From Actinomycetota bacterium (GTDB taxonomy: Bacteria > Actinomycetota > Acidimicrobiia > Acidimicrobiales > SZUA-35), in contig JBCCRO010000001.1 of the NCBI GenBank assembly GCA_039201605.1, positions 162,173 to 226,172 on the forward strand: a DNA stretch of 64,000 nucleotides, given 5' to 3'. Positions 2,230 through 59,601 of this stretch are shown piece after piece. The notes under the pieces were generated by a model. The model worked only from the letters and a program-made list of their open reading frames with translations. It did no database searches and was not told the DNA's origin. How positions within the stretch are numbered: the first letter of the stretch is position 1; the number at the start of each line of letters is the position of its first letter. A program made the position numbers and the translations under genes.

Positions 2230-2487
2230 CAAAAGTGACGCGCGCCACATTTTGTCTCAACAACCTTGCCACATTCAGTATGTTAAGAGTGCCTAGCACA
2301 GCGCTATCGCGATTAAAAGAGACAAAAAGCCATAGCGAGCTATTCACACAATTCGGCTTGCGAACTATGGTTCCAACCACGCCTTCCCCGCCGCTGGCGG
2401 TCCCGTGCGGCCCTTCTTCGGGCGGAGGTCAAAGCCGCCGCGGCCGGTTCTCCTGGCCTGATTAGGCGAGATAGGAGAGTTGGCACG

Positions 2488-3810
2488 ATGTCATTTACGG
2501 CCGATGTGCAGGCCGCCGCAATTCCTGCTGTCACCGGTGTCCAGGCGGCCAAGATCTGCGCCGCCTGGGCCGGATCGGGCCGATTCGGTGACCATGTGGT
2601 CTACGAGCACGCCGACCGTTGGAGCTTCGGAGGCGGCCGCAAGGCGTCGGTCCGACTCACGACCTCCGAGCTCGTGGTCGAGCGCGACGGGGTCGAGGTG
2701 CGGACGCCGTGGGACGGGGATCCGTCAGCCGCCCTGGGCGCCGCCCTCGACGCCATCGACGAGGACGGATGGCGGCTGTACGGCTGGGTGGGTTTCGACT
2801 TCGCCGCCGCCCAGCACGGCCTCCTCGACCGCGTGCCACCGGGGACGACGCTCGCCCATCTGGTGATCCCCGAGTTCGAGGCCACGGTCGGTGTCGCCGG
2901 CATCGACGTCGGCACCGCACCCCCGGAGACCGCAGCCCTGCTCCGGACGCTGGCCGACGAGGTGGAGCCGCTGGCCACCCCCTGCCCGATCTCGGTTCAC
3001 CTCGATCCCTACGGCTACGAGGACATGGTGGCCACCGCCGTCGGGGAGATCGAGCGGGGCGACTACCGGAAGGTGATTCTCTCCCGGGTGGTGGAGGTGC
3101 CCTTCGCCGTCGACCTCCCTCGGACGTACGCCCTCGGTCGCGCCAGGAACAACCCGGCCCGGTCCTACCTCTTCCAGCTGGACGATCTCAGCGCCGTCGG
3201 GTTCAGCCCCGAGCTGGTGCTGGCCGTCGACGCCGACCGCATCGTGCAGACCGAGCCGCTGGCCGGCACCCGGGCCCTCGGCATCGGGGCCGCCGCCGAC
3301 GCCGAAGCCCGACGAGAGCTGCAATCCGACGTCAAGGAGATCGCCGAACACGCCATGTCGGTGCGGGCCTGTTGGGAAGAGGTCGAGTCCGTCTCCCGGC
3401 CCGGCACCACGGCCGTCAGCGAGTACATGGTGGTGAAGGACCGCGGCAGCGTGCAGCATCTGGCGTCGACGGTCCGCGGCCGATTGGCCGACGACCTCAA
3501 CCCGTGGCACTCGTTCGCCGTCGCCTTCCCGTCGATCACCGCCTCGGGAATCCCCAAGACCGAGGCCCTGGAGGCGATCTACCGGTTGGAGCCCCTGCGG
3601 CGGAACCTCTACTCGGGTGCCGTGGTGACGGCGTCGTCCGCCGGCGATCTGGAGGCGGCACTGGTGCTGCGCACCGTCTTCTCCAGCGGCGGCCGAACCT
3701 GGCTGCGGGCCGGGGCCGGGATCGTCGAACAGTCCCGTCCGAGCCGCGAGTTCGACGAGACGTGCGAGAAGCTCGGGAGCATCGCGCCCTTCCTCGTGCC
3801 CGCCCGATGA
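2488..3810 (+). CDS. mbtI: salicylate synthase / isochorismate synthase family enzyme (MbtI-like chorismate-utilising enzyme)
   Basis: 440-aa ORF with GGAGAG upstream of the ATG. Motifs: SPELVLAVDADRIVQTEPLAGTRALG, KEIAEHAMSV, FPSITASGIPK, RNLYSGAVV, GAGIVEQSRPSREFDET. No isochorismatase (EntB-type), EntA-type dehydrogenase or PchB-like lyase is present in the window. Confidence 0.85.
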   Translation: MSFTADVQAAAIPAVTGVQAAKICAAWAGSGRFGDHVVYEHADRWSFGGGRKASVRLTTSELVVERDGVEVRTPWDGDPSAALGAALDAIDEDGWRLYGWVGFDFAAAQHGLLDRVPPGTTLAHLVIPEFEATVGVAGIDVGTAPPETAALLRTLADEVEPLATPCPISVHLDPYGYEDMVATAVGEIERGDYRKVILSRVVEVPFAVDLPRTYALGRARNNPARSYLFQLDDLSAVGFSPELVLAVDADRIVQTEPLAGTRALGIGAAADAEARRELQSDVKEIAEHAMSVRACWEEVESVSRPGTTAVSEYMVVKDRGSVQHLASTVRGRLADDLNPWHSFAVAFPSITASGIPKTEALEAIYRLEPLRRNLYSGAVVTASSAGDLEAALVLRTVFSSGGRTWLRAGAGIVEQSRPSREFDETCEKLGSIAPFLVPAR

Positions 3811-8569: not shown

Positions 8570-9951
8570 CCGTGAGCGATCAGCCCGTACTCGTCTGTAT
8601 CGGCGGCGGCCCCAAGGCCCTCGCCGTGGCCGCCAAGGCCAAGGTCCTCCGTCGGCTCGGCCTTCCCGCACCCCGGGTGGTGATCATCGAGCGCCACTCG
8701 ATCGGCGCCAACTGGACGGCGGCCGGCGGTTGGACCGACGGCACCCACCGGCTCGGGACGAGCCCCGAGAAGGACCTCGGTTTCCCGTATCGCTCGGCCG
8801 AGTTCCGGGGCCACAACCGCCACGTCGATCACGCCATGCTCGCCTTCTCGTGGAACGCCTACCTGGTGGCCGCCGGTGGGCTCGGCGAGTGGGTCGACCG
8901 CGGTCGCCCGGCGCCTCGCCATCGCGAGTGGGCCAGGTACCTCCAGTGGGCGGCCGGCGAGGCCCAGCCGGAGCTGGTGATCGCCGAGGCCCGGACGGCG
9001 ACGATCGCGGGGGAGCGGTGGCGGGTCGAGGCGGTCGGCGACGATGGGCAGCCGCAGTCGATCGAGGCCGACGCCCTGCTGGTGACCGGGCCCGGATCGG
9101 CCACGAGCGAGTGGGAGTCGTCGAGCCCACGGGTGTTCGGACCGGCGCGTTTCTGGCGGGCGGTCACCGAGCGCCGCCTGCCGGTGGTCGAGCGGGCCGC
9201 CGTCATCGGCGCCGGCGAGACCACCGGGGCCATCCTCCACGAGATGTGCGGACACGACGCGCTCGGCGTGTCGATCATCGCCCCGCAGGCCAGCATCTTC
9301 ACCCGGGGCGAGGGGTACTTCGAGAATCGGGCCTTCACCGACAGCGGCCGTTGGCAGGCCCTGTCGCTGGCCCAGCGCCGGGAGCTGATCAGCCGGGCCG
9401 ATCGGGGTGTCATCTCCCAGACCGCCATGGACGAGATCCGTCTCGACAGCCGCTTCGCCCACGTCGAGGGCAAGGTCACCGGGGTGCAGGCCGAGGGCGA
9501 GGAGGTGGTCCTCGGGATCGAGACCGCCACCGGGTTCGTCAGCCGGCGCTATGACCTGGTCATCGACGCCCGCGGCACCCAGGACCTGTGGTTGCTGCGC
9601 TTGCTCGGCGATGTGGCCCGCAGTCGGCTCGAACTCGCCGTCGGTGGTGCGCCGACGCTGGAGCGGGCCCAGATGTCGATCGACCGCACGCTGGCCATCT
9701 CGGGGATGACGCCGCGGCTGTTCGTCCCCGGCCTGGCCGCCCTCCGCCAGGGCCCGGGCTTCCCCAATCTGAGCTGCCTCGGCTCGACCAGCGATCGGAT
9801 CTGCGCCGGGCTGATGCAGGCGACGGTCGACACCCGGGACCCCCACCTCGTTACGGCGGCCTCCGGCCCCACCGCCGGCCGGAGCCGGGCCGTCGAACCG
9901 GCCCCCGGGCGCCGCCCGGCCGCCACCGAACACCAACCAGGAAGCGCATGA
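8566..9951 (+). CDS. mbtG: L-lysine N6-hydroxylase / L-ornithine N5-oxygenase family flavoprotein (MbtG-like)
   Basis: Only the last 461 aa of the 6622-9951 ORF are used. The ATG at 8566 overlaps the upstream stop (ATGA). Motifs: VCIGGGPKALAVAAKA, GANWTAAGGWTDGTHRLGTSPEKDLGFPYRS, VIGAGETTGAIL, QGPGFPNLSCLG. Confidence 0.9.
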   Translation: MTVSDQPVLVCIGGGPKALAVAAKAKVLRRLGLPAPRVVIIERHSIGANWTAAGGWTDGTHRLGTSPEKDLGFPYRSAEFRGHNRHVDHAMLAFSWNAYLVAAGGLGEWVDRGRPAPRHREWARYLQWAAGEAQPELVIAEARTATIAGERWRVEAVGDDGQPQSIEADALLVTGPGSATSEWESSSPRVFGPARFWRAVTERRLPVVERAAVIGAGETTGAILHEMCGHDALGVSIIAPQASIFTRGEGYFENRAFTDSGRWQALSLAQRRELISRADRGVISQTAMDEIRLDSRFAHVEGKVTGVQAEGEEVVLGIETATGFVSRRYDLVIDARGTQDLWLLRLLGDVARSRLELAVGGAPTLERAQMSIDRTLAISGMTPRLFVPGLAALRQGPGFPNLSCLGSTSDRICAGLMQATVDTRDPHLVTAASGPTAGRSRAVEPAPGRRPAATEHQPGSA

Positions 9952-12900
9952 TGACCACCAGAGACGACATCCGGAAGCTGCTGGCCACCGAGCTGGATAT
10001 CGCCGTCGATCAGCTCGAGGACGGGGCCGACCTCTTCACCCAGGGCATCCACTCGCTGCTCCTGATGAAGACGGCCGGTTGGTTGCGTCGCTCCGGTCAC
10101 CGCATCCGCTACGCCGACCTGGTCGAGGTGCCGACGATCGACGCCTGGGTCGCCCTGCTCGACGGCGCAGCCGAGACCGGCACCGCCTCCGACGGCGGCG
10201 CCGACGGTGAGGTCGCCGCCGACGGGTCGGCACCCGAGCCCGACGAGGCCGTGATCGACCTGACCGAGACCGACGATCCCGACTTCGGGCTGGCCACGAT
10301 GCAGCACGCCCTGTGGATCGGTCGCCAGGAGGGCCAGCGCCTGGGCGGCGTGGCCGCCCACCTGTACGTCGAGTTCGACGGGGCGGGGATAGACCCCGAC
10401 CGGCTGCGCCGGGCCCTCGACCGGACGATCGCCCGTCACGACATGCTGCGGGCCGCCTTCGGCGACAACGCCACCCAACGGATCCTGGCCGAGGCACCGG
10501 ATGCGGTGTGGTCGGTGACGGACCTGCGGGACGAGCCGCCCGCCGTCGTCGCCGAGCGCCTGGAGGCGACCCGCCACCAGAAGAGCCACCAGCAGATGGC
10601 GGTCGGCCTGGGCCAGGTGATCGACGTCTCGACCACGCTGTTGCCCGACGGTGCCCACCGCATCCACATCGACGTCGACATGCTGGCCGCCGACGCCATG
10701 AGCTACCGGCGCATCCTCAACGACCTCGCCGTCTACTACAACGAGGACCGCGACGACGCGCTGGCCCCCATCGGCTGCAGCTACCGGCAGTACCTGTCGG
10801 CCCGGGCTCGGCACCGGGACCGGGCGACGGCGGAGATCGAGACCCACCGGCAGTGGTGGGCCGACCGGCTCGCCGATCTGCCCGAGATCCCCGAGCTGCC
10901 GACGATCGGTGAGGCCGAGCGGGCCGACCCCACCGCCAGCGTCCGGCTCCACCACCACCTCGGGGTGACGCAGCGCCGAGGGCTGGAGGAGGCGGCTCGG
11001 ACCCTCGGCCTGACGCCGGCGGCCCTGCTCGCCGCCCTCTTCTCCGAGGTGATCGCCACCTGGTCGGCCTCGCAGCGGTTGCTGCTCAACATCCCGCTGT
11101 TCAACCGGGAGCCGCTGTTCCCCGACGTCGAGCTGCTGGTCGGCGACTTCACCAACTCGGTCCTGGTCGACGTCGACCTGTCGCAGCCGGTGTCGGTGGC
11201 CGAGCGGGCCCGAGGGCTGCAGCGGTCGCTCCACGAGGCGACGGCTCACAGCGCCTACGAGGGCCTCGACGTGCTGCGCGACCTCGGTCGGCTGCGGGGC
11301 AACGCCGTCACCCCCTCGGTGGTGTTCACCTCCGGCCTGAATCTGGGGGAGCTGTTCTCGGCCTCGGTCACCGAGACGCTCGGACGACCGGGCTGGATCC
11401 TGTCCCAGGGCCCTCAGGTCGATCTCGACGCTCAGGTGGTCGAACTCGACGGCGGCATGTTGGTCAACTGGGACCTGCGGCGCGACGCGCTGCCGGCCGG
11501 GATGGGCGAGGCGATGTTCGCCGCATTCACCGAGCTGCTGACCGCAGCCGGGAACGGCGATCTCGACTGGAGCGGCGTGACCTCGGTGGAGCTCGACGAG
11601 GACCAGCGCCGGGGTCGCACGCTGGCCAACCGGGCCCTCGACCGGCGTCCCCCGGTGCGGAACCTGCTCGACCCGTTCTTCGAGTACGTCGGCGCCACCC
11701 CCGACGCCGTGGCCCTGGAGTGGCCGGGTGGCGGCTCGCTGTCGTACCGCCGACTGGCGGACGAGGCCCTGCGTCTCACCGCCGCACTGCGGGCGGCCGG
11801 TGTGGCGCCGGGCGACGACGTGGCCCTGCTCGTGCCCCGAGGCCCGCAGCAGGTGGTGGCCGTGCTCGGGGTCCTGGCCGCCGGAGGCGTGTACGTCCCG
11901 GTCGGCACCGACCTGCCGGTCGCCCGGCAGGCGGCGATCCTCCGACGCTCGGGCGCCTCCGTCCTGGTCACGTCGGGCGGTTCCGGTGGCGAGGAGCTGC
12001 CGAACGACGTCGTCACCGTCGATCTGATGTCGCTCGATGGGGTGGAGCCCGCCGTTCCGTACTCACCCGACCCGGAGTCGCCGGCCTACGTGCTGTTCAC
12101 CTCGGGCTCGACCGGTGAGCCGAAGGGGGTGGAGATCATCCACCAGGCGGCGGCGTCGACCATCGACGCGCTGGCCGGCCACTACGAGCTCAGCGCCGAC
12201 GATCGGGCCATCGGCCTGGCCCCGCTCGGCTTCGACATCTCCGTGCTCGACATCTTCGGAGCCCTGAATTTCGGCGGCTCGCTGGTCTGTCTCGACGAGG
12301 ACACCGCCCGCGATCCCGTGGCCTGGACCCGCCTCATCGCCGCCCACGGGGTGACGGTGGTGGGAGCGGCGCCCGGTCTCATCGCCGCCCTCGACTCGGT
12401 GAGCACCGCCGACGACATCGCCTCGATCCGGCTGATCATGACCGGCGGCGACCGGGTCGATCACGCACTGGGCCGCAGACTGCGGGAGAAGGTGCCGGCG
12501 CTGCGGTTCATCGCCCTCGGCGGCGCCACCGAGGCCGCCATCCACACCACGATCTTCGAGCTCGCCGACACCACTCCGGTCGAGTGGGCCAACCTGCCCT
12601 ACGGCTATCCGATGGACGGTGCCGGGCTACGGGTGGTCAACCAGCGGGGCGAGGACTGCCCCGAGCTGGTGCCGGGCGAGATCTGGATCGGCGGGGCCGG
12701 TGTCGTCGGCTCCGGCTACCGGGGCGACCCGGAGCGCACGGCCGAGAAGTTCCTCGACCTCGACGACGGACGCTGGTACCGGACGGGGGACATCGGGCGG
12801 TACCTGCCCGGCGGGATCCTCGACATCCTCGGACGTCGCGACCACCAGGTGAAGATCCGGGGTCACCGGGTCGAGCTCGGCGAGGTGGAGTCGGCGCTCG

Positions 12901-13475
12901 TCCGCCAGCCCGGCGTCGACGGGGCGTTGGCCACGCTGTTGGGCACCGGCGAGCCGATCCTGGGGGCGGCCGTCGCCGGTCGGGGTCTCGACCCGGAGGC
13001 CTTACGTGAGGGGTTGGCCGCTCTGCTCCCGGCCTACATGGTGCCGACGATCGTGTTGGTCACCGAGACGATGCCGACCACCCGGAACGGCAAACGCGAC
13101 CGGCGGGCGATCGAACAGGCGCTGACCGACGAGCTGGCTCAACGCCAGACGGCACCGGCCTCGCCGGCCAGCGACCTGGAGGCGGCGTTGGCCTTCGTCA
13201 TGGCCGCCATCCTGGAGCGGGACGAGGTGGGGGTCACCGCCGACTTCTTCGAGCTCGGCGGCAACTCGATACACGCCACGCTGTTCGTGGGCCGGGCCCG
13301 ATCCCTGCTGGGGGTGGGCGACCTCGCCGTCGCCGATCTGTTCGAGCTGCGGACACCGCAACGGCTGGCTCCCCGGCTCCTCGAACTCGGCGATGCGCCG
13401 ACGGTCGAGCGCATCGCCACCCTGCTGCTCGACGTCGCCCGGGAGGGCGAGACGTCGGTGCCGGAGCCGGCATGA
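9948..13475 (+). CDS. mbtB: NRPS ArCP-Cy-A-PCP (aryl carrier plus heterocyclisation module, MbtB-like, no C-terminal TE)
   Basis: The ATG at 9948 overlaps the mbtG-like stop (ATGA). The N-terminal carrier motif is FTQGIHSLLLMK. Cy motifs are FGLATMQHALWIGRQ and DVDMLAADAMS (DxxxxDxxS). The A domain is intact (LFTSGSTGEPKG, FDISVLDIFG, LGGATEAAI, YRTGDIGRY, GRRDHQVKIRGHRVELGEVE, NGKRDR). The PCP motif is FFELGGNSIHA. Confidence 0.9.
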   Translation: MMTTRDDIRKLLATELDIAVDQLEDGADLFTQGIHSLLLMKTAGWLRRSGHRIRYADLVEVPTIDAWVALLDGAAETGTASDGGADGEVAADGSAPEPDEAVIDLTETDDPDFGLATMQHALWIGRQEGQRLGGVAAHLYVEFDGAGIDPDRLRRALDRTIARHDMLRAAFGDNATQRILAEAPDAVWSVTDLRDEPPAVVAERLEATRHQKSHQQMAVGLGQVIDVSTTLLPDGAHRIHIDVDMLAADAMSYRRILNDLAVYYNEDRDDALAPIGCSYRQYLSARARHRDRATAEIETHRQWWADRLADLPEIPELPTIGEAERADPTASVRLHHHLGVTQRRGLEEAARTLGLTPAALLAALFSEVIATWSASQRLLLNIPLFNREPLFPDVELLVGDFTNSVLVDVDLSQPVSVAERARGLQRSLHEATAHSAYEGLDVLRDLGRLRGNAVTPSVVFTSGLNLGELFSASVTETLGRPGWILSQGPQVDLDAQVVELDGGMLVNWDLRRDALPAGMGEAMFAAFTELLTAAGNGDLDWSGVTSVELDEDQRRGRTLANRALDRRPPVRNLLDPFFEYVGATPDAVALEWPGGGSLSYRRLADEALRLTAALRAAGVAPGDDVALLVPRGPQQVVAVLGVLAAGGVYVPVGTDLPVARQAAILRRSGASVLVTSGGSGGEELPNDVVTVDLMSLDGVEPAVPYSPDPESPAYVLFTSGSTGEPKGVEIIHQAAASTIDALAGHYELSADDRAIGLAPLGFDISVLDIFGALNFGGSLVCLDEDTARDPVAWTRLIAAHGVTVVGAAPGLIAALDSVSTADDIASIRLIMTGGDRVDHALGRRLREKVPALRFIALGGATEAAIHTTIFELADTTPVEWANLPYGYPMDGAGLRVVNQRGEDCPELVPGEIWIGGAGVVGSGYRGDPERTAEKFLDLDDGRWYRTGDIGRYLPGGILDILGRRDHQVKIRGHRVELGEVESALVRQPGVDGALATLLGTGEPILGAAVAGRGLDPEALREGLAALLPAYMVPTIVLVTETMPTTRNGKRDRRAIEQALTDELAQRQTAPASPASDLEAALAFVMAAILERDEVGVTADFFELGGNSIHATLFVGRARSLLGVGDLAVADLFELRTPQRLAPRLLELGDAPTVERIATLLLDVAREGETSVPEPA

Positions 13476-18865: not shown

Positions 18866-20670
18866 TCCTCGCCCGCACCCTGGCGCTGGTACCGGCCGAG
18901 CAACGACCGCTCCTGCCCCGCTTCGGCGCCGCCATGGTGGCCGCCGCCGTGGCCGAGGCGGCCGCCTACGTGCTGTTGGTCCCGCTGCTGCGGGCGCTGC
19001 TGGTGGGCGACAACGGCACGGCGGCGTGGTGGCTGTCGGCGATGACCGTCGCCGTCGCCGTCGCCGCCGTGGCCTCCTACGCCCAGTCGCTGCTCGGGTT
19101 GCGGATCGGGGTGGGCATGCTGCGCGGCCTGTCCCGACGGGTGGGCGAGCACCTCAATGCCCTACCCCTCGGCTGGTTCGATCGTCGCCCGACCACCTCG
19201 GTGGCCGGCGTCCTCGTGGGCGACGTGCGCGAGGTGCTCGGCGTCTTCGCCCACCTGGCCACGGTGTTCGTCGGTTCGCTGCTGGTGCCGATGGCCACTG
19301 CGGTGGGGATCCTGCTGGTCGATTGGCGTCTCGGCCTGGCCTTCGTCGTAGCGTTCCCCGTCCTGTTCGGCGTTCACCTGGCCGCCGGCCGTTCGTACCG
19401 GGCGGCCGACCGGGCCGTGCACGAGGCGGCGGACGAGGCCAACGGTCGTCTGGTCGAGTTCGCCGTGGCCCAGCCGACGTTGCGATCCTTCGGCGCCGTC
19501 GGGTCGACCACCCGCACCCTGGACGAGTCCCTCCGGGGCCTGCTCGGCGCCTCGGCCCGTCGGCTCGCCGCCGGCATCCCCGGCCTCGTCGCCTTCGCCT
19601 TCGCCGTGCAGCTCGGGTTCCTGGCCCTCGTCTACCTGTTGACGGTTCGCTTCACCGACGGGCAGCTCTCGGCGGCGTCGATGGTGGCCCTGATCGTGGT
19701 GGTCGCCCGCTTTGTCGACCCGCTCGATCAGCTCGGCCAGGTCGGCGCCACCGTCCGCTCTGCCGGCGATGCCGTCGACCGCATCGTCGACCTCCTGGCC
19801 GAGCCCGCGATCGTCGATCCCGAGGTCGCCGACGCCCCCGCCGACTGGACCCTCGAATTCGACGGCGTCGGTTTCGCCTACGACCGTGATCCGACAGCGG
19901 GCGATCCCACGGCGGGCCAACCCACCGCGGGCCAACCCCCAGCGGGCGATCCCACGGCGGGGGCGGGATCGGTGCTGCACGACGTGTCCTTCACGGCCCG
20001 GGCGGCGACGATCACGGCCATCGTGGGGCCGAGCGGTGCCGGGAAGACGACCCTGCTCCAGCTGGCGGCCCGGTTCCGCGATCCGACCAGCGGCACCATC
20101 CGGCTCGGGGGCTGCGATCTCCGCCGCCTCGATCTCGATCGGGTGATGGCGGCCATGTCACCGGTGTTCCAGGACGTGTACCTGTTCGACACCTCGATCG
20201 CCGAGAACGTGCGCTTCGGTCGGCCGGGCGCCACCGCGGCCGAGGTGGCCGAGGCCGCCCGACTGTCCGCCCTCGACGAGGTCGTCGAGCGGCTGCCCGA
20301 GGGCTGGGCGACGCGGGTGGGCGATCGCGGCTCCCGGCTCTCGGGCGGGGAACGGCAGCGGGTCGCCATCGCCCGGGCCCTGCTGAAGGACGCACCGATC
20401 GTGCTCCTCGACGAGGTGACCAGCGCCCTCGACCCCCACAACGAGGGCGTGGTGGTCGACGGCATCCGACGGCTGACGAGGGACAAGACGGTGCTGGTGG
20501 TGGCCCACAAGCTGTCGACCGTCGTCGACGCCGACCAGATCCTGGTCCTCGACGGCGGGACGATCGCCGAACGCGGTGATCACGAGGAGCTGGCCGTCGG
20601 CGGCGGGCGGTACGAGGAGTTCGTCGAGCAGCGAAGGAGCGCGGGCGGATGGCGCGTCGTCAGCGGCTGA
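18862..20670 (+). CDS. ABC transporter, fused permease-ATPase half transporter (IrtB/YbtQ-type partner)
   Basis: The GTG at 18862 overlaps the upstream stop (GTGA). A TM region is followed by an NBD with GPSGAGKTT, LSGGERQRVAIAR and IVLLDEVT. Confidence 0.85.
   Translation: MILARTLALVPAEQRPLLPRFGAAMVAAAVAEAAAYVLLVPLLRALLVGDNGTAAWWLSAMTVAVAVAAVASYAQSLLGLRIGVGMLRGLSRRVGEHLNALPLGWFDRRPTTSVAGVLVGDVREVLGVFAHLATVFVGSLLVPMATAVGILLVDWRLGLAFVVAFPVLFGVHLAAGRSYRAADRAVHEAADEANGRLVEFAVAQPTLRSFGAVGSTTRTLDESLRGLLGASARRLAAGIPGLVAFAFAVQLGFLALVYLLTVRFTDGQLSAASMVALIVVVARFVDPLDQLGQVGATVRSAGDAVDRIVDLLAEPAIVDPEVADAPADWTLEFDGVGFAYDRDPTAGDPTAGQPTAGQPPAGDPTAGAGSVLHDVSFTARAATITAIVGPSGAGKTTLLQLAARFRDPTSGTIRLGGCDLRRLDLDRVMAAMSPVFQDVYLFDTSIAENVRFGRPGATAAEVAEAARLSALDEVVERLPEGWATRVGDRGSRLSGGERQRVAIARALLKDAPIVLLDEVTSALDPHNEGVVVDGIRRLTRDKTVLVVAHKLSTVVDADQILVLDGGTIAERGDHEELAVGGGRYEEFVEQRRSAGGWRVVSG
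19888..19962 (+). repeat. five tandem 15-bp in-frame repeats encoding (D/Q)P(T/P)AG x5
   Basis: The units are gatccgacagcgggc, gatcccacggcgggc, caacccaccgcgggc, caacccccagcgggc and gatcccacggcgggg. Together they encode DPTAGDPTAGQPTAGQPPAGDPTAG, inserted between the first NBD strands (VGFAYDR ... SVLHDVSF). Confidence 0.9.
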
Positions 20671-46456: not shown

Positions 46457-48118
46457 CTAGGCGGTGACGATGACCTCGTGCCAGCCCGAGGCGCCGTTGG
46501 GGGCGGGCGGAGCCATGACCGAGGTCTGCGTCTCACCCGAGCCGTCGGTGGCCCGCACCTTGATCGTGTGGCGGCCCTCGGTCGGTGACCAGACAACCCG
46601 CCACTGGCGCCAGGCGTTGATACCGAGCGAATCGCCCAGCTCGGCCTCGACCCACTCGTCCTCGTCGAACTGCACCTCGACCTTGTCGATACCGAGGTTC
46701 GGGGCCCACGCGACCCCGGCCACCGCCACATCGACGCCGGCCGCCAGGGTGGTGCCCCGGCGCGGGGTGTCGATACGGGACTGGGTCTTGACCGGACCGT
46801 TCTTCGACCAGCCGCGGGGGATCCAGTAGCCGTCGAAGTCCTCCAGGGTGGTCAGCTCGATCTCGGACAGCCACTTGGTGGCCGACACGTAGCCGTAGAG
46901 GCCGGAGACGACGAGGCGGGCGGGGAAGCCGTGGCGGAGGGGGAGGGGCTCGTCGTTCATGGCGATGGCCACCATCGCCGTCCGGCCGTCGTAGGCGACG
47001 TCGGTGGGGAAGCCGCACGACCAGCCGTCGACCGATCGGCTGGCGATCTGGGTTGCGCCCTCCTGTACCCCGGCCTCGTCGAGGAGCTCGGTGAGGGCGA
47101 TGCCCTGCCACACGGCGTTGCCGACCAGGTTGCCGCCGACCTCGTTCGACACGCACGAGAGGGTGACCGGCTCGATCATGTCGGCCCGGTCGAGCAGCTC
47201 GTCGTAGGTGATGACGAGCTCGTTGTCGACCATGCCCTTGATCGTGAGCTGCCAGTTGGTCGGGTCGACCTGGGGGGTGAGGATGGCGGTGTCGATCAGG
47301 TAGAACTCGTCGTTGGGGACGACCAGCGGGCTGATTCCGGGGGTGGAGCCGATGTCGCCCAGGTCGGCGGCCGTGATCCGGGCCTCCAGCTCGGTCTCCG
47401 ACAGGGCGGAGTCGAGCTGCACGGCGTCGCGGGCGTCGTTGGCCGACGAGCGGGAGCGCAGCAGGCTGGCGGAGGCGGTGGCCACGGCGGCCGAGGCCCC
47501 GATGGCGCCGGCGGTGTTGAGAAAGGCCCGGCGCGAGTAGTTGGGATCGACGGGGGAGTCGATGACGACGGCCCGGCCCCCCTCGCCCTCGGTGGAGATG
47601 GTCTGCCTGGTGGCTCCGGTCCCGACGAGGGAGAAGCCGGCCTGGTTGCGGAGCCACATCAGCACGCCGACCCCGGCGACGACGGCGATCAACGACACCG
47701 GGATTCCCACGGCGACGCCGCCCTGGCTGTCGGTGATGATGGCGACGAGGCCGATGAACCCGAAGGCGGCGATGCCGGCGACGCCGGGCATCGGGTTGCG
47801 GCGGGAGGCGATACCGAGCCCGGCGGCGATCAGCAGCGAGATGATCACCGTGCCGATCACGAGGGCGGTCTTGTCGGAGAGTCCGAACACCGCCTTGCCG
47901 AAATCGACGAACCAGCCCGGGGCCAGATCGATAACCCGGTTGGCCACGGCGATCACCGGGCCGGGCCGGGGTGCGGCGAAGGCGGCGCTCAGCTCGCCGG
48001 CGGCCAGCGCCGCCGCACCGGCGAGCACACCGACGAGGGCGGCGCGGGCGATCCCGCCGACATCGCGGTCGTTGGCGGGCCCGGGGGTGGCGCTGGTGAT
48101 CGTCGTTGCGTCGTTCAT
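46457..48118 (-). CDS. membrane-anchored molybdopterin-dependent oxidoreductase (sulfite oxidase/SUOX family)
   Basis: The start is taken at ATG 48118, with AAGGAG about 10 nt upstream. The N-terminal part has multiple TM helices. The catalytic part contains LSCVSNEVGGN (Moco Cys), GFPARLVVSGLYGYVSATKW and an Ig-like dimerisation C-terminus. Confidence 0.85.
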   Translation of the reverse strand: MNDATTITSATPGPANDRDVGGIARAALVGVLAGAAALAAGELSAAFAAPRPGPVIAVANRVIDLAPGWFVDFGKAVFGLSDKTALVIGTVIISLLIAAGLGIASRRNPMPGVAGIAAFGFIGLVAIITDSQGGVAVGIPVSLIAVVAGVGVLMWLRNQAGFSLVGTGATRQTISTEGEGGRAVVIDSPVDPNYSRRAFLNTAGAIGASAAVATASASLLRSRSSANDARDAVQLDSALSETELEARITAADLGDIGSTPGISPLVVPNDEFYLIDTAILTPQVDPTNWQLTIKGMVDNELVITYDELLDRADMIEPVTLSCVSNEVGGNLVGNAVWQGIALTELLDEAGVQEGATQIASRSVDGWSCGFPTDVAYDGRTAMVAIAMNDEPLPLRHGFPARLVVSGLYGYVSATKWLSEIELTTLEDFDGYWIPRGWSKNGPVKTQSRIDTPRRGTTLAAGVDVAVAGVAWAPNLGIDKVEVQFDEDEWVEAELGDSLGINAWRQWRVVWSPTEGRHTIKVRATDGSGETQTSVMAPPAPNGASGWHEVIVTA

Positions 48119-48201
48119 TGCCTCGCTGCTCCTTTGACGGTTACCCACTCAACCAGCACCGGTCGGCAGGTCTTCGCCCCCGGAGCCGATATCGGCCCGG
48201 T

Positions 48202-48227: not shown

Positions 48228-48293
48228 CCCGGGTTTGGGCATGGTCTACCGATGGAAGGAATGCCAACCCCTGGCGGCCGGTTGACGTCTGCC

Positions 48294-48920
48294 ATGCCCA
48301 TGAGACTACGCCCCCGGCGCGTCCCGACCCTGGTCGGGGTCATGGCGGCCCTGGCCCTGGCGGTCGCCGCGTGCGGATCGGGTGCCACCGACGACGCCGA
48401 CACCGCCGCCGAGGCCACCACCGCCCCCGCCAACACACCGTCGGCGGCCGATACCACCGACGAGGCGGCCGAACCGGTCGGCCCCGAGGTGCCCGCACCG
48501 GCCGAGAACCTGTTCGCCCCCGTCGACGTGGTGAACATCGCCGACGGCAGCACCCTCAACCTGGCCGAGGAGCTGGCGGGCGACGATCGCCCCGTGCTGC
48601 TCTGGTTCTGGGCACCTCATTGACCCTTCTGTCGGGCCGAGGGCCCGGCCGTTGAGCAGTTCGCTCAGCAGAACGCAGACGTGATCCGTGTCGTCGGTAT
48701 GGGGGCTCAGGACTCGCTGGCCCAGGCTCAGGAGTTCGTCCAGAGCACCGGGACGGCCACGCCGCTCATGATCTGGGACGAGAGCTTCGCCAGTTGGGAC
48801 TACTACGGCGTACGTGGCCAGCCCACCGCCATCCTCGTCGACGCCACCGGCAACCCCATCCAGGGATGGTCCGGGCCGTTCGACCAGCAGGAGGTTCTCG
48901 ACCTCGCCGCTGCGGCCTGA
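48294..48920 (+). CDS. TlpA/ResA-family thioredoxin-fold lipoprotein with one in-frame TGA at the first Cys of CxxC (candidate selenocysteine codon; otherwise a pseudogene)
   Basis: Track ORFs 48252-48623 and 48681-48920 are in the same frame, and the only stop between them is TGA 48621-48623. Read-through gives ...RPVLLWFWAPH[TGA]PFCRAEGPAVEQF...VRGQPTAILVDATGNPI..., a WxxW-CxxC-type redoxin with the cis-Pro motif intact. The signal/lipobox is MPMRLRPRRVPTLVGVMAALALAVAAC. Confidence 0.6.
48631..48649 (+). other. GC hairpin 8 nt downstream of the in-frame TGA (possible bacterial SECIS-like element)
   Basis: gtCGGGCC-gag-GGCCCGgc: six perfect G:C pairs, plus a U:G pair and a G:C pair extending the stem. 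The loop is GAG. Hairpins are common in GC-rich DNA, so this is not diagnostic. Confidence 0.3.
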
Positions 48921-49024
48921 TCGGCGGCCTCTGACTAAGCTGCGGCGCACGCCGATCGAGCGACGGAGCCGGGCGATGCGGCCCGGCCGCCGGGCTCGAT
49001 GCGGACGAACCGTAGGAGAAGGTC

Positions 49025-58776: not shown

Positions 58777-59601
58777 TCAGCTCGGGTAGATCCAGGCAAG
58801 GTAGAACGAGGCGATCAAGATCGCCAGGGAGAATAGGGCGATGACGCCACCCCAGAACCAGTACGGCAGCAGGAGCACGTTGGCGATGGTCTGGGTGTCG
58901 GAGTCGGTCAGGGTGCCGTCGCTGCGGATGAAGTTCTTGGTGAACATGTAGTTGAGGCTGCCCCAACTGGCCACGCAGAACTGGATGCCGACCAGCTGGG
59001 CCACGAACACCTTGATCAGCACCGGGGCCTGCCAGGCCAGCGGCACCAGGGCCAGGCCGATCAGGCCGAGCACGACCCACCCGAACGTGTTGCGGACGAA
59101 GAGCACCACCGACAGCAGCACCGCCGCCGCCAGACCGGTGAGGATCCACGGGGCCGTGGCCTCCCGGGAGCCGAGCACGATGAACAGTCCGCCGACGACG
59201 GCGGGGGCCAGGAGGCCGCCGGCGGCCACGATGGCCCGACCCAGCCCGCCGAGGCCGCTGGAGAAGGCGAGACCGTCGAGGTTGCGATGGACCTCCAGCC
59301 GCTTGAAGCGGCCGCCGACGGCGATGGCGGTGAGCCCGTGGCCCAGCTCGTGGACCCAGGTGCCCAGCAGGGCGAAGGGGTAGAGCAGCATCCGCCCGTA
59401 CGGCAGGCGGGGCAGGATCAGGCTGACGGCGACGGCGGCCCAGAACAGCTGGATCAGCTGGCCGTCGGCCATGTCGGAGAATTCGGGGAGGCGGTCGAGC
59501 ACACCGCTCTGGAAGCCCTCGGGCAACCCGATCGGCAACGGCTGCAGCCCGCCGAAGGTCGCAGCCACTTGTCGTCCCGCCCACTCGGTCACGGTGCCCA
59601 C
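58777..59601 (-). CDS. M50-like membrane metallopeptidase
   Basis: 274 aa, multi-TM, with the HExxH motif WVHELGHGLTA. Confidence 0.7.
   Translation of the reverse strand: MGTVTEWAGRQVAATFGGLQPLPIGLPEGFQSGVLDRLPEFSDMADGQLIQLFWAAVAVSLILPRLPYGRMLLYPFALLGTWVHELGHGLTAIAVGGRFKRLEVHRNLDGLAFSSGLGGLGRAIVAAGGLLAPAVVGGLFIVLGSREATAPWILTGLAAAVLLSVVLFVRNTFGWVVLGLIGLALVPLAWQAPVLIKVFVAQLVGIQFCVASWGSLNYMFTKNFIRSDGTLTDSDTQTIANVLLLPYWFWGGVIALFSLAILIASFYLAWIYPS

What the first reader, a model, noticed from the sequence alone, without database searches (positions are those of the whole stretch)
48252..48920. In-frame TGA exactly at the first Cys of the CxxC motif of a thioredoxin-fold lipoprotein: candidate selenoprotein (UxxC) or very recent pseudogene
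Seen in sequence: track ORFs 48252-48623 and 48681-48920 are in the same frame. The single stop between them is TGA 48621-48623.

Reading through gives LLWFWAPH-[TGA]-PFCRAEGPAVEQFAQQNADVIRVVGMGAQDS...YGVRGQPTAILVDATGNPIQGW. This is a complete TlpA/ResA-type redoxin in which the TGA occupies the position of the N-terminal active-site Cys (W-x-x-x-C-x-x-C). The downstream 99 codons keep coding-like G/C third positions and the conserved cis-Pro motif (GQPT).

Eight nucleotides after the TGA is a GC hairpin (48631-48649: 6 G:C pairs plus 2 extending pairs, loop GAG).

Established knowledge: bacterial Sec insertion needs a stem-loop just 3' of UGA. Sec typically replaces the redox Cys in thioredoxin-fold selenoproteins, which have Cys-containing homologues.

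Alternative explanations are a single-base TGC/TGT to TGA nonsense mutation or a sequencing error. A random nonsense hit would fall on this particular codon in roughly 1 of 200 codons.

Caveats: TGA is the ordinary stop codon of most genes here, hairpins are frequent in GC-rich DNA, and Sec use is patchy in Actinobacteria.
Basis: partly seen in the sequence, partly recalled or inferred. Interest (0 to 1): 0.8.

Follow-up and report, generated by a model that had tools for sequence, protein, structure and literature searches.

The report
Selenocysteine redoxin lipoprotein of Acidimicrobiia
The in-frame TGA is almost certainly a real selenocysteine codon in a cell-surface thiol-disulfide oxidoreductase: over 150 related Acidimicrobiia sequences keep the TGA, the reading frame and a nearby RNA hairpin, so this is an unannotated subfamily of a known kind of selenoprotein.

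Summary
ORFs 48252-48623 and 48681-48920 are one gene, interrupted only by TGA 48621-48623. That codon aligns with the first Cys of the CxxC motif of a DsbE/DsbF/ResA/TlpA-type redoxin.

It is not a recent pseudogene:
- 155 of 166 motif hits across the window and 163 related loci (almost all Acidimicrobiia MAGs or metagenome contigs) carry TGA at this codon. Eleven carry TGC, and none carry TAA or TAG.
- The ORF after the TGA is intact (93-104 codons) in 147 of 151 cases.

It is the adjacent one, 48651-48669 (GUUGAGC-AGUUC-GCUCAGC):
- It has near-invariant synonymous sites and compensatory pairs.
- Its N-G-U-Y-Y loop meets all four constraints of the published bacterial SECIS consensus.
- The Cys-form homologues lack it.

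No sel genes or tRNA-Sec lie in the window. However, one related Acidimicrobiales contig also carries a formate dehydrogenase gene with TGA at the canonical Sec position.

Verdict: a genuine UxxC selenoprotein, a new member of a known kind. It matches no selenoprotein-specific NCBIfam model, and one NCBI MAG record names its truncated form a hypothetical protein.

The parts
48252..48923 (+). Complete selenoprotein gene: lipoprotein-type DsbE/DsbF/ResA/TlpA-like redoxin with a UxxC active site. The start is ATG 48252 or, more likely, ATG 48294 (MPMRLRPRR...). The true stop is TGA 48921-48923.
   Evidence: sequence and frame; Pfam; PDB homologues; conserved read-through architecture in 150+ loci.
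48294..48374 (+). Signal peptide with a lipobox (..LAVAA-C). The lipidated Cys codon is TGC 48372-48374. This implies export and membrane tethering on the outer face of the cell membrane.
   Evidence: Read directly from the sequence. In alignment A1 the Cys (C27) is conserved in at least 90% of sequences, within an AACGSG consensus. Localisation is inferred, not predicted with a dedicated tool.
48621..48623 (+). In-frame TGA read as selenocysteine. It takes the place of the N-terminal (nucleophilic) Cys of the CxxC motif, in the motif W-A-P-H-U-P-F-C.
   Evidence: TGA in 155 of 166 motif hits (window included), TGC in 11, never TAA or TAG; it aligns to the first Cys of CPTC in DsbF; the genes' real terminal stops are mixed (TGA 79, TAG 61, TAA 11).
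48630..48632 (+). TGT, the resolving Cys of UxxC. It lies between the TGA and the internal GTG, and is invariant as TGY in all Sec forms.
   Evidence: columns +9 and +10 are 100% conserved, and +11 is C or T only.
48631..48649 (+). It is GC-rich with 8 bp and loop GAG. It fills the spacer between the UGA and hairpin 2. Its register varies among homologues, but it is more stable in Sec forms.
   Evidence: -14.3 kcal/mol. Sec forms average -11.6 kcal/mol, Cys forms -6.3, and the synonymous-permutation control -8.6 (z -16.8); only 65% of cells pair in a fixed register; it is not part of the RNAalifold consensus.
48651..48669 (+). Hairpin 2, the candidate SelB-binding SECIS core: GUUGAGC-AGUUC-GCUCAGC. 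The loop is 48658-48662, and the near-invariant inner stem is 48653-48657 paired with 48663-48667. It overlaps the codons V-E-Q-F-A-Q.
   Evidence: the five inner pairs are 98.5-100% paired in 134-135 distinct sequences; pair +32/+46 is C-G 103 and U-A 27; pair +34/+44 is A-U 130 and G-C 3; synonymous sites are fixed (GAG 100%, CAG 100%, GCU 97%). It is the only helix in the RNAalifold consensus.: -8.9 kcal/mol, z -3.9; the motif occurs 155 times in 1.67 Mb of loci searched on both strands, and 154 of those lie exactly 33 nt after the in-frame TGA.
48822..48824 (+). CCC, the conserved cis-proline of the thioredoxin fold (in GQPT).
   Evidence: aligned to QP in DsbF and MPT53; Q176 and P177 are invariant.
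46457..48148 (-). Context only: a divergently transcribed sulfite-oxidase-family molybdopterin oxidoreductase whose N-terminal ~250 residues precede the Mo domain and look hydrophobic. It is a frequent but not universal neighbour.
   Evidence: Oxidored_molyb; SorA-like, below cutoff; present divergently upstream in 50 of 103 Sec-form loci with enough flank.

Best explanation
Window 48252/48294-48923 (+) is one gene for an exported, lipid-anchored thioredoxin-fold thiol-disulfide oxidoreductase. It belongs to the actinobacterial DsbE/DsbF (MPT53) / ResA / TlpA type. UGA 48621-48623 encodes selenocysteine at the nucleophilic position of the active site (W-A-P-H-U-P-F-C).

Proposed mechanism, in steps:
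1. Shown comparatively: the UGA, the reading frame on both sides of it, and an RNA structure just downstream are conserved across a large Acidimicrobiia family.
2. Inferred: when the ribosome reaches the UGA, a SelB·GTP·Sec-tRNA(Sec) complex is recruited by hairpin 2 (48651-48669). This hairpin has a 5-7 bp stem closed by C-G and a 5-nt loop A-G-U-U-Y, and its G-U resembles the SelB-contacting G23/U24 of E. coli fdhF (from my own knowledge).
3. Inferred, more speculative: hairpin 1 (48631-48649) folds the 27-nt spacer back on itself. The conserved mini-hairpin then sits at roughly the canonical short distance from the UGA. This arrangement would exist because the codons right after U (PxC-R-x-E-x-P) are constrained by the active site.
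4. Inferred from homology and gene neighbourhood: the mature protein sits on the outer face of the membrane. It cycles between selenolate/thiol and selenenylsulfide, and is kept reduced by a CcdA/DsbD-type membrane electron transporter. It reduces or isomerises disulfides (or sulfenates) in exported proteins. Its substrate is unknown.

Confidence by step: about 0.93 that the UGA is a genuine Sec codon; about 0.65 that hairpin 2 is the SelB-binding element; about 0.35 for the spacer-collapsing role of hairpin 1.
For: Codon conservation
- The codon after ...LLWF[WF]APH is TGA in 155 of 166 motif hits across the window and 163 loci, TGC in 11, and never TAA or TAG.
- Ten independently called database proteins all end exactly at ...APH, while three Cys forms read WAPHCP[SA]C.

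Translation past the TGA
- The downstream ORF is 93-104 codons in 147 of 151 Sec loci, matching the Cys forms (98-102).
- The genes' true stops are mixed (TGA 79, TAG 61, TAA 11).
- Third codon positions differ more than first and second (0.54 vs 0.39 and 0.33).
- The invariant C, E and P codons lie between the TGA and any possible downstream restart.

RNA-level selection on hairpin 2
- Synonymous sites are fixed: GAG 100%, CAG 100%, GCU 97%.
- The Val third base covaries with the second base of the Gln/Arg codon (C-G 103, U-A 27-28, 4 exceptions).
- A-U changes to G-C in 3 sequences.
- It is the only helix RNAalifold predicts.
- It fits the bSECIS model: 5-nt loop with G at position 2 followed by U, 34-nt spacing, -8.9 kcal/mol (model constraints from PMC13188914).
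- Cys forms lack both the VEQFA sequence and the hairpin.
- The motif is specific: 154 of its 155 occurrences sit exactly 33 nt after the in-frame TGA.

Hairpin 1
- Sec forms average -11.6 kcal/mol, Cys forms -6.3, and the permutation control -8.6.

Sec use in the lineage
- L079, an Acidimicrobiales MAG contig with the Sec-form redoxin, also has an FdhF-like gene (38% identity over 632 aa). Its TGA aligns to E. coli U140, and a GUCGUC-GGUCU-GGCGAC hairpin follows it.
- Actinomarina, also class Acidimicrobiia, is reported to carry selA, selB, selC and selD (bioRxiv 10.64898/2026.04.03.716425).

Fold and family
- Pfam; DsbF 3IOS and MPT53 1LU4.

Electron-donor partner
- A CcdA (DsbD_TM) gene is immediately adjacent in 8 of the 10 Cys-form loci and 12 Sec-form loci.
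Against: - No selA, selB, selD or tRNA-Sec was found in the window or in 1.67 Mb of related loci. The Sec machinery of this particular genome is therefore unverified.
- Taken alone, the window's whole TGA-proximal fold is only modestly better than shuffles (z -1.5 to -2.3).
- Hairpin 2 begins 27-29 nt after the UGA, compared with 11 nt in E. coli fdhF (from my own knowledge). Its loop is AGUUY rather than GGUC.
- In some homologues hairpin 1 itself satisfies the bSECIS model (loop GGC at +20). Which hairpin binds SelB is therefore not settled.
- The permutation and shuffle controls do not remove phylogenetic relatedness.
- No CcdA gene is near the gene in this window, and M. tuberculosis DsbE and DsbF, from my own recollection of published biochemistry, act as oxidants. 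The redox direction is uncertain.
- There is no experimental evidence of Se incorporation.
Confidence: 0.87

Rival explanations
1. Recent pseudogene, nonsense mutation or sequencing error: a TGC/TGT to TGA change inactivated a Cys-type redoxin, and only the N-terminal 123-aa fragment (or nothing) is made.
For: - TGA is the commonest ordinary stop in this window.
- Gene callers, and one NCBI MAG annotation, treat the homologues as truncated hypothetical proteins.
- No sel genes lie in the window.
Against: - The same TGA is present in 154 other loci from independent assemblies whose proteins average about 51% identity.
- The downstream frame is intact in 147 of 151.
- Residues between the TGA and the next possible start codon are invariant at the protein level.
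- A covarying hairpin is tied to the TGA forms only.
Confidence: 0.02
2. The UGA is recoded, but not as selenocysteine. Either a tRNA(Sec)-like tRNA(Cys) delivered by SelB inserts Cys, or the downstream hairpins stimulate near-cognate read-through (Trp, Cys or Arg).
For: - The comparative data show that the UGA is translated and that an RNA structure is needed. They do not show which amino acid is inserted.
- The Sec machinery was not seen directly.
- From my own knowledge, tRNA(Sec)-like tRNA(Cys) species have been proposed in some bacteria.
Against: - The position is the redox-active nucleophile of a thioredoxin-fold CxxC, which is the classic site of Sec/Cys exchange (families listed in PMC13188914).
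- The hairpin fits the SelB-type bSECIS model.
- A canonical selenoprotein gene (FDH with TGA at U140) co-occurs on one related contig.
- If Cys were wanted, TGC would do, as it does in the 11 Cys forms.
Confidence: 0.05
3. It is a selenoprotein, but the functional SECIS is hairpin 1, the reader's hairpin at 48631-48649. Its loop lies at +18 to +22, close to the E. coli and FDH spacing. Under this reading hairpin 2 is conserved for another reason, such as an mRNA stability or pausing element, or a protein-level need for VEQFA.
For: - Hairpin 1 is much more stable in Sec forms than in Cys forms, and than in permuted controls.
- In one frequent register its loop is GGC at +20 with 17-nt spacing, which satisfies the bSECIS constraints.
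- The FDH hairpin in L079 has its loop at +22.
Against: - The loop sequence and register of hairpin 1 are not conserved: GAG, GAA, GGC and 5-9 nt loops all occur. Only 65% of cells pair in a fixed register, and it is absent from the RNAalifold consensus.
- In the window its loop GAG lacks G[G/U], and the spacing is 15 nt, below 16.
- Hairpin 2 has the near-invariant loop N-G-U-Y-Y closed by C-G, like the GGUCU loop of the L079 FDH hairpin, and its synonymous sites are fixed.
- VEQFA is not needed by the fold, since the Cys forms lack it.
Confidence: 0.2

Closest known systems
[quoted passage not shown] All are tabulated in PMC13188914 and PMC9312934.
   Same: - Same fold and Pfam families (Redoxin, AhpC-TSA, Thioredoxin_2, Thioredoxin_8).
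- Same UxxC arrangement, with Sec at the N-terminal position.
- Cys homologues exist.
- Found mostly in marine or environmental metagenomes.
- Identified only by bioinformatics.
   Different: I could not compare sequences with the listed accessions, so identity with one of these families is neither shown nor excluded.
- This subfamily is defined by W-A-P-H-U-P-x-C, a lipoprotein signal, the VEQFA-encoded hairpin, and near-exclusive occurrence in Acidimicrobiia.
- It hits no selenoprotein-specific NCBIfam model.
- One NCBI MAG record names its truncated homologue a hypothetical protein.
Mycobacterium tuberculosis DsbF (Rv1677, PDB 3IOS) and DsbE/MPT53 (Rv2878c, PDB 1LU4).
   Same: - These are the best matches among solved structures (E 5.6e-15 and 9.4e-12).
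- The active-site context is the same (LWFWAPWCPTC and LWFWTPWCPFC against LWFWAPHUPFC).
- The cis-Pro is conserved.
- All are exported actinobacterial redoxins.
   Different: - They have Cys, not Sec, at the first position, and Trp rather than His before it.
- From my own recollection of published biochemistry, the mycobacterial proteins behave as oxidants.
- Their genes have no recoding signal.
ResA (Bacillus), CcmG/DsbE (Gram-negatives) and TlpA (Bradyrhizobium): extracytoplasmic reductases fed by CcdA/DsbD.
   Same: - They share weak matches to the same NCBIfam models, all below cutoff (TIGR00385 dsbE, ResA, TlpA).
- They are membrane-tethered and extracytoplasmic.
- A CcdA (DsbD_TM) gene is directly adjacent in 8 of the 10 Cys-form and 12 Sec-form loci.
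   Different: - All scores are below the curated cutoffs, so this is not an equivalog of any of them.
- No cytochrome c maturation genes were seen beside it.
- In the window's clade the neighbour is a sulfite-oxidase-family molybdoenzyme together with a ferredoxin and a ferredoxin reductase.
E. coli fdhF-type bacterial SECIS and the bSECISearch consensus model.
   Same: - A stem-loop lies inside the coding region 3' of the UGA.
- The apical loop is small, with G followed by U.
- All four constraints of the consensus model are met by hairpin 2.
   Different: - The conserved mini-hairpin starts 27-29 nt after the UGA, against 11 nt in fdhF (from my own knowledge).
- The loop is AGUUY rather than GGUC, and no bulged U is evident.
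- A second, covarying but non-conserved hairpin occupies the spacer.

Membership tests
Bacterial selenoprotein gene (SelB/SECIS-dependent UGA recoding) | In-frame UGA at a position occupied by Cys in homologues (a Sec/Cys pair) | tested here: met
   TGA in 155 of 166 motif hits, TGC in 11; it aligns to the first Cys of the CxxC motif of DsbF.
Bacterial selenoprotein gene (SelB/SECIS-dependent UGA recoding) | Coding conservation on both sides of the UGA, with the downstream frame intact and under purifying selection | tested here: met
   147 of 151 downstream ORFs are 93-104 codons; differences by codon position are 0.39, 0.33 and 0.54; invariant C, E and P codons lie just after the TGA.
Bacterial selenoprotein gene (SelB/SECIS-dependent UGA recoding) | bSECIS stem-loop: 3-9 nt apical loop, upper stem of at least 4 bp, G in the first two loop positions, 16-37 nt between the UGA and the loop, MFE <= -7.5 kcal/mol (PMC13188914) | tested here: met
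   Hairpin 2 (48651-48669) has a 5-nt loop AGUUC, a 5-7 bp stem, 34-nt spacing and -8.9 kcal/mol. It is conserved with compensatory changes. bSECISearch itself was not run.
Bacterial selenoprotein gene (SelB/SECIS-dependent UGA recoding) | selA, selB, selC (tRNA-Sec) and selD present in the same genome | not testable with these tools
   None were found in the 64-kb window or in 1.67 Mb of related loci. Indirect evidence only: an FDH gene with TGA at U140 on the related contig L079, and Actinomarina sel genes reported in the literature.
Bacterial selenoprotein gene (SelB/SECIS-dependent UGA recoding) | Selenium demonstrated in the polypeptide (75Se labelling or mass spectrometry) | not testable with these tools
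   This is an experimental test.
TlpA/ResA/DsbE-like thioredoxin-fold oxidoreductases (Pfam Redoxin / AhpC-TSA; cd02966) | Domain match above the curated threshold | tested here: met
   Redoxin 36.9 bits (cutoff 26.6), AhpC-TSA 35.1 (26), Thioredoxin 30.1 (23.5).
TlpA/ResA/DsbE-like thioredoxin-fold oxidoreductases (Pfam Redoxin / AhpC-TSA; cd02966) | W-x-x-x-C-x-x-C active site and a conserved cis-Pro | tested here: met
   WAPH[U]PFC aligns to WAPWCPTC, and QP aligns to the cis-Pro. Sec replaces the first Cys.
TlpA/ResA/DsbE-like thioredoxin-fold oxidoreductases (Pfam Redoxin / AhpC-TSA; cd02966) | Extracytoplasmic location (signal peptide or membrane anchor) | tested here: met
   Judged by sequence inspection only. 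An N-terminal basic and hydrophobic segment precedes a lipobox Cys (C27), which is conserved in at least 90% of the sequences in alignment A1. No dedicated signal-peptide predictor was available.
TlpA/ResA/DsbE-like thioredoxin-fold oxidoreductases (Pfam Redoxin / AhpC-TSA; cd02966) | Genetic linkage to a CcdA/DsbD electron transporter | tested here: inconclusive
   a CcdA gene is adjacent in 8 of the 10 Cys-form loci and 12 Sec-form loci, but not in the window or its closest relatives. Those instead have a divergent molybdoenzyme gene.
Named equivalogs: DsbE/CcmG (TIGR00385, NF011941), ResA (NF002854), TlpA (NF047696) | Score at or above the NCBIfam curated cutoff | tested here: not met
   45.5 vs 123 bits, 41.6 vs 359, 37.7 vs 170 and 28.7 vs 230. 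It is related to these families but is not a member of any of them.
Curated NCBIfam selenoprotein families (e.g. [quoted passage not shown] | A match to the family HMM | tested here: not met
   (max E 0.01): no selenoprotein-specific model is listed, apart from a faint SelL-related hit at 17 bits against a cutoff of 120.
E. coli fdhF-type SECIS | Mini-hairpin about 11 nt after the UGA, with a GGUC loop (G23, U24) and a bulged U | tested here: not met
   The conserved hairpin starts at +30 with loop AGUUY, and only the G-U dinucleotide is shared. The fdhF features are recalled from my own knowledge.

The most novel reading that the evidence does not exclude
The family uses a distinct, bipartite class of bacterial SECIS. 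A near-invariant SelB-binding mini-hairpin (C-closed N-G-U-Y-Y loop) sits about 30 nt past the UGA. An obligatory spacer hairpin, which covaries but is free in sequence, brings it into register. In addition, Acidimicrobiia, an abundant actinobacterial class in marine, sediment and soil samples, overwhelmingly (>90% of fetched loci) use selenocysteine rather than cysteine in a surface-exposed DsbE/DsbF-like lipoprotein. That would imply an unrecognised selenium dependence of their envelope redox homeostasis.
Probability: 0.3. Interest if true: 0.6.

Novelty: new member of a known kind. Interest (0 to 1): 0.45.

Why it matters
- Annotation. At least 78 GTDB species-representative genomes among the loci fetched here, and many metagenome contigs, carry a gene of this family that gene callers split into a truncated 'hypothetical protein' and an orphan fragment. 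Recognising the Sec codon restores a complete, conserved envelope redox enzyme.
- Biology. It gives direct sequence evidence that many Acidimicrobiia decode UGA as Sec, a trait barely documented for this class. It also suggests that their extracytoplasmic thiol-disulfide chemistry depends on selenium.
- Mechanism. The two-hairpin arrangement has a sharply conserved distal loop and offers a clean natural test case. It could show how far a bacterial SECIS can sit from the UGA, and how protein and RNA constraints are reconciled within the same codons.
- Limits. None of this overturns current understanding. UxxC thioredoxin-fold selenoproteins are an established category.

Tried and rejected
- tRNA and Rfam searches. 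ARAGORN and Rfam (gathering threshold) on the whole window found nothing, so there is no tRNA-Sec. Rfam at E<=10 on 48560-48740 gave only chance hits, and Rfam has no usable bacterial SECIS model.
- tRNA-Sec in the loci. ARAGORN on all 164 sequences (1.67 Mb) found 9 tRNAs, none tRNA-Sec.
- Sel proteins.
- Window genes. A Pfam scan of 25 window ORFs found no sel genes. The neighbours are NRPS/siderophore-type genes, ABC transporters, acyl-CoA dehydrogenase, M23 peptidase, luciferase-like monooxygenase, a molybdoenzyme, ferredoxin with its reductase, and NUDIX.
- Structure prediction. I relied on sequence homology to solved structures instead.
- Phylogeny. A midpoint-rooted NJ tree, made to test whether Sec forms are monophyletic, was uninformative.
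- Other same-frame ORF pairs. The pairs separated by a single TGA at 13473-13475 and 58777-58779 are ordinary gene ends followed by intergenic sequence.
- Fixed-register hairpin 1 as the conserved SECIS. Rejected as the consensus element, although it is probably still functional.
- Identity with published families. I could not tell whether the published 'thiol-disulfide isomerase-like' or 'Redoxin family' UxxC selenoproteins are the same family, because their sequences were not retrievable.
Full report
**1. The observation**

- An ORF starting at ATG 48252 runs to TGA 48621-48623. A second in-frame ATG at 48294 gives a more typical signal peptide, MPMRLRPRR...LAVAAC.
- The same frame stays open for 99 more codons, to TGA 48921-48923.
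- The ORF listed at 48681-48920 is only the mechanical ORF from an internal GTG.
- Read-through gives ...RPVLLWFWAPH*PFCRAEGPAVEQFAQQNADVIRVVGMGAQDS...YYGVRGQPTAILVD....

With Cys substituted at the stop, the protein behaves as a thioredoxin-fold redoxin.
- It passes the Pfam gathering scores of Redoxin, AhpC-TSA, Thioredoxin, Thioredoxin_8 and Thioredoxin_2.
- Its best matches among solved structures are M. tuberculosis DsbF (3IOS, E 5.6e-15) and MPT53/DsbE (1LU4, E 9.4e-12).
- In those alignments the stop lies opposite the first Cys of WAPWCPTC, and QP lies opposite the cis-proline.

The hairpin at 48631-48649 is real. It has 8 bp, loop GAG, -14.3 kcal/mol, and z -3.3 against shuffles.

**2. 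Is it a pseudogene?**

The first protein search was already telling. Of the 13 homologues found, ten are database proteins of 121-152 aa. Their identities are 41-68%, and every one ends exactly at ...LLWF[WFY]APH. The other three are full-length Cys forms (WAPHCPSC or WAPHCPAC).

I then fetched 80 loci from GTDB species-representative genomes and 80 from metagenomes, using the family alignment. Nearly all named records are Acidimicrobiia or Acidimicrobiales MAGs.

Results for the active-site codon:
- Counting the window with these loci and three fetched earlier, the codon after ...APH is TGA in 155 of 166 motif hits and TGC in 11.
- It is never TAA or TAG.
- After the TGA the frame continues as U-x-x-C-[RN]-x-E-x-P-x-V-E-Q-F-A-[QR]....

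Results for the region downstream of the TGA:
- The downstream ORF is 93-104 codons in 147 of 151 complete Sec-form loci, the same as in the Cys forms (98-102).
- The genes' real terminal stops are a mixture (TGA 79, TAG 61, TAA 11).
- Third codon positions differ more than first and second (0.54 vs 0.39 and 0.33).

The Sec forms average only about 51% identity with one another, so this is an old and maintained state. A recent nonsense mutation or a sequencing error is excluded for practical purposes.

**3. The RNA element**

I aligned 134 distinct 66-nt segments, from -9 to +56 relative to the T of TGA. The alignment has no gaps.

*Hairpin 2 is the conserved element.* It spans +30 to +48 (window 48651-48669), GUUGAGC-AGUUC-GCUCAGC.
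- It is conserved at synonymous sites: GAG 100%, CAG 100%, GCU 97%. By contrast the Ala codon just before the TGA is only 22% GCU, and the Glu codon at +18 to +20 is 56% GAG and 44% GAA.
- Its five inner pairs form in 98.5-100% of sequences.
- Pair +32/+46 is C-G in 103 sequences and U-A in 27. This links a synonymous Val site to the base that decides Arg versus Gln, a link that protein-level selection cannot explain.
- Pair +34/+44 changes from A-U to G-C in three sequences.
- RNAalifold, run independently, predicts this helix and nothing else as the consensus.
- The loop is AGUUY in 130 of 135 sequences.
- The Cys forms encode different residues here (VLEFAK, LLAFQK, VVEFSA, MREFAE) and do not form the hairpin. 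The VEQFA conservation is therefore imposed by the RNA, not by the fold.
- The motif GAGC[AG]GTT[CTG]GCTC occurs 155 times in the 1.67 Mb of loci, searched on both strands. In 154 of those it lies exactly 33 nt after the in-frame TGA.

Hairpin 2 satisfies all four constraints of the published bacterial SECIS model (PMC13188914):
- a 3-9 nt loop;
- a stem of at least 4 bp;
- G in the first two loop positions, usually followed by G or U;
- 16-37 nt between the UGA and the loop (here 34 nt), with MFE <= -7.5 kcal/mol (here -8.9).

- It does not hold a fixed register. Only 65% of cells pair in the window's register, and it is absent from the consensus fold.
- Even so, almost every Sec-form sequence folds some 6-9 bp hairpin in this spacer. 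The mean is -11.6 kcal/mol. The Cys forms average -6.3, and a control that permutes synonymous codons within columns averages -8.6 (z -16.8).
- Relatedness inflates such controls, but the register shifts accompanied by full re-pairing argue for selection.
- I therefore read the element as bipartite: a spacer hairpin that is free in sequence, abutting a sequence-specific distal mini-hairpin.
- In the window, hairpin 1 narrowly misses the bSECIS model (15-nt spacing, loop GAG). In some homologues (loop GGC at +20) it would pass. Which hairpin contacts SelB is therefore not settled by computation.

**4. Is Sec decoding plausible in these organisms?**

The window has no tRNA and no Rfam hit. The ORFs I scanned include no SelA, SelB or SelD. 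The related loci also have no tRNA-Sec and no sel genes.

Two indirect lines of evidence support Sec decoding.
- Locus L079 is an Acidimicrobiales MAG contig with the Sec-form redoxin. It also carries an FdhF-like formate dehydrogenase gene, 38% identical over 632 aa.
  - Its TGA (L079 19648-19650, minus strand) aligns exactly with U140 of E. coli FdhF (CNRT*HAPSV against CARVUHGPSV).
  - A GUCGUC-GGUCU-GGCGAC hairpin follows, with its loop at +22.
  - That loop, closed by C-G and reading N-G-U-Y-U, resembles the loop of hairpin 2. This is my main reason for favouring hairpin 2 as the SelB site.
- A 2026 preprint reports selA, selB, selC and selD in all Actinomarina genomes it assembled (class Acidimicrobiia). 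Otherwise the searchable literature says almost nothing about Sec in Acidimicrobiales.

**5. What the protein does**

*Location.* The N-terminus is a signal peptide ending in a lipobox. The Cys codon is 48372-48374, and this Cys is conserved in at least 90% of the aligned homologues. The protein is therefore predicted to be a lipoprotein on the outer face of the membrane. No dedicated predictor was run.

*Chemistry.* Sec occupies the exposed nucleophilic position of the CxxC motif, and the resolving Cys (48630-48632) is invariant.

*Electron donor.* A CcdA/DsbD_TM gene is immediately adjacent in 8 of the 10 Cys-form loci and in 12 Sec-form loci, among them L058, L148, L141, L054, L117 and L123. 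This is the classical electron donor of ResA/CcmG/TlpA-type reductases.

*Local context.* In the window's own clade the neighbours differ.
- A sulfite-oxidase-family molybdoenzyme is transcribed divergently (46457-48148). It is present in 50 of 103 Sec-form loci with enough flank.
- A ferredoxin, a ferredoxin reductase and a NUDIX gene lie downstream.

*Conclusion.* I commit to an extracytoplasmic selenol/thiol-disulfide oxidoreductase kept reduced by CcdA. The substrate is unknown. The redox direction is uncertain, because from my own recollection of published biochemistry the mycobacterial homologues act as oxidants.

**6. Comparison with what is known**

Thioredoxin-fold UxxC selenoproteins are an established, mostly bioinformatic category. 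[quoted passage not shown] This gene belongs to that category.

Whether it is literally one of the listed families I could not determine, because the accessions were not retrievable. What I can say:
- It matches no selenoprotein-specific NCBIfam model.
- It falls below the cutoffs of DsbE, ResA and TlpA.
- One NCBI MAG record names its truncated homologue a hypothetical protein.

Its SECIS-like element fits the consensus model. It differs from the fdhF archetype in spacing (27-29 nt against 11 nt), in its loop, and in having a structured spacer.

**7. Verdict**

The pseudogene alternative is rejected.
- Novelty: a new member of a known kind. It is a large, apparently uncurated, Acidimicrobiia-specific subfamily in which the Sec form predominates.
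- Interest is moderate. It is useful for annotation and for SECIS biology, but it would not surprise a selenoprotein specialist.

Noticed in passing
L079 18007-19878 (minus strand); TGA at 19648-19650: An FdhF-like formate dehydrogenase gene in an Acidimicrobiales MAG contig. Its in-frame TGA aligns with E. coli Sec140, and a GUCGUC-GGUCU-GGCGAC hairpin follows 16 nt downstream. This is an independent selenoprotein gene on the same contig as a Sec-form redoxin.
   Followed up: partly
L077 Sec codons at 10229 and 11311; also L070 (two TGC copies at 9327 and 10181): Tandem paralogous copies of the redoxin gene. L077 (Ca. Hopanoidivoransaceae) has two Sec-form copies, each with its own TGA and VEQFA hairpin. 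L070 (Sporichthya) has two Cys-form copies.
   Followed up: no
L058 6275-7150, with equivalents in L148/L150, L141, L054, L117, L123, L070, L074, L124, L128, L130, L131: A CcdA-type (DsbD_TM) membrane electron-transporter gene lies directly adjacent to the redoxin gene, overlapping or within a few nt of it. This holds in 8 of the 10 Cys-form loci and in 12 Sec-form loci. It is absent from the window's clade.
   Followed up: partly
window 46457-48148 (minus strand): A 563-aa sulfite-oxidase-family molybdoenzyme (Oxidored_molyb plus a Big_7-like C-terminus). About 250 N-terminal residues precede the Mo domain and look hydrophobic. It is SorA/SoxC-like but far below the equivalog cutoffs. It is divergently paired with the selenoprotein gene in about half of the Sec-form loci, and a functional link is possible but untested.
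   Followed up: partly
window 3629-29672: A run of very large ORFs (1647, 1307, 1144 and 2055 codons, not themselves scanned). It includes AMP-binding enzymes, a siderophore-interacting protein (SIP/FAD_binding_9) and ABC transporters, with a chorismate-binding enzyme (2317-3810) just upstream. It looks like an NRPS-type siderophore cluster.
   Followed up: no
L051 (labelled Gammaproteobacteria MAG) and L072 (labelled Acidobacteria MAG): Two Sec-form loci come from bins named outside Actinomycetota, although their sequences are typical of the Acidimicrobiia family. This is probably mis-binning rather than horizontal transfer.
   Followed up: no
window 13473-13475 and 58777-58779: Two other places where stop-to-stop ORFs abut in the same frame across a single TGA. 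Translation shows ordinary gene ends followed by intergenic sequence and a new start. There is no recoding.
   Followed up: yes
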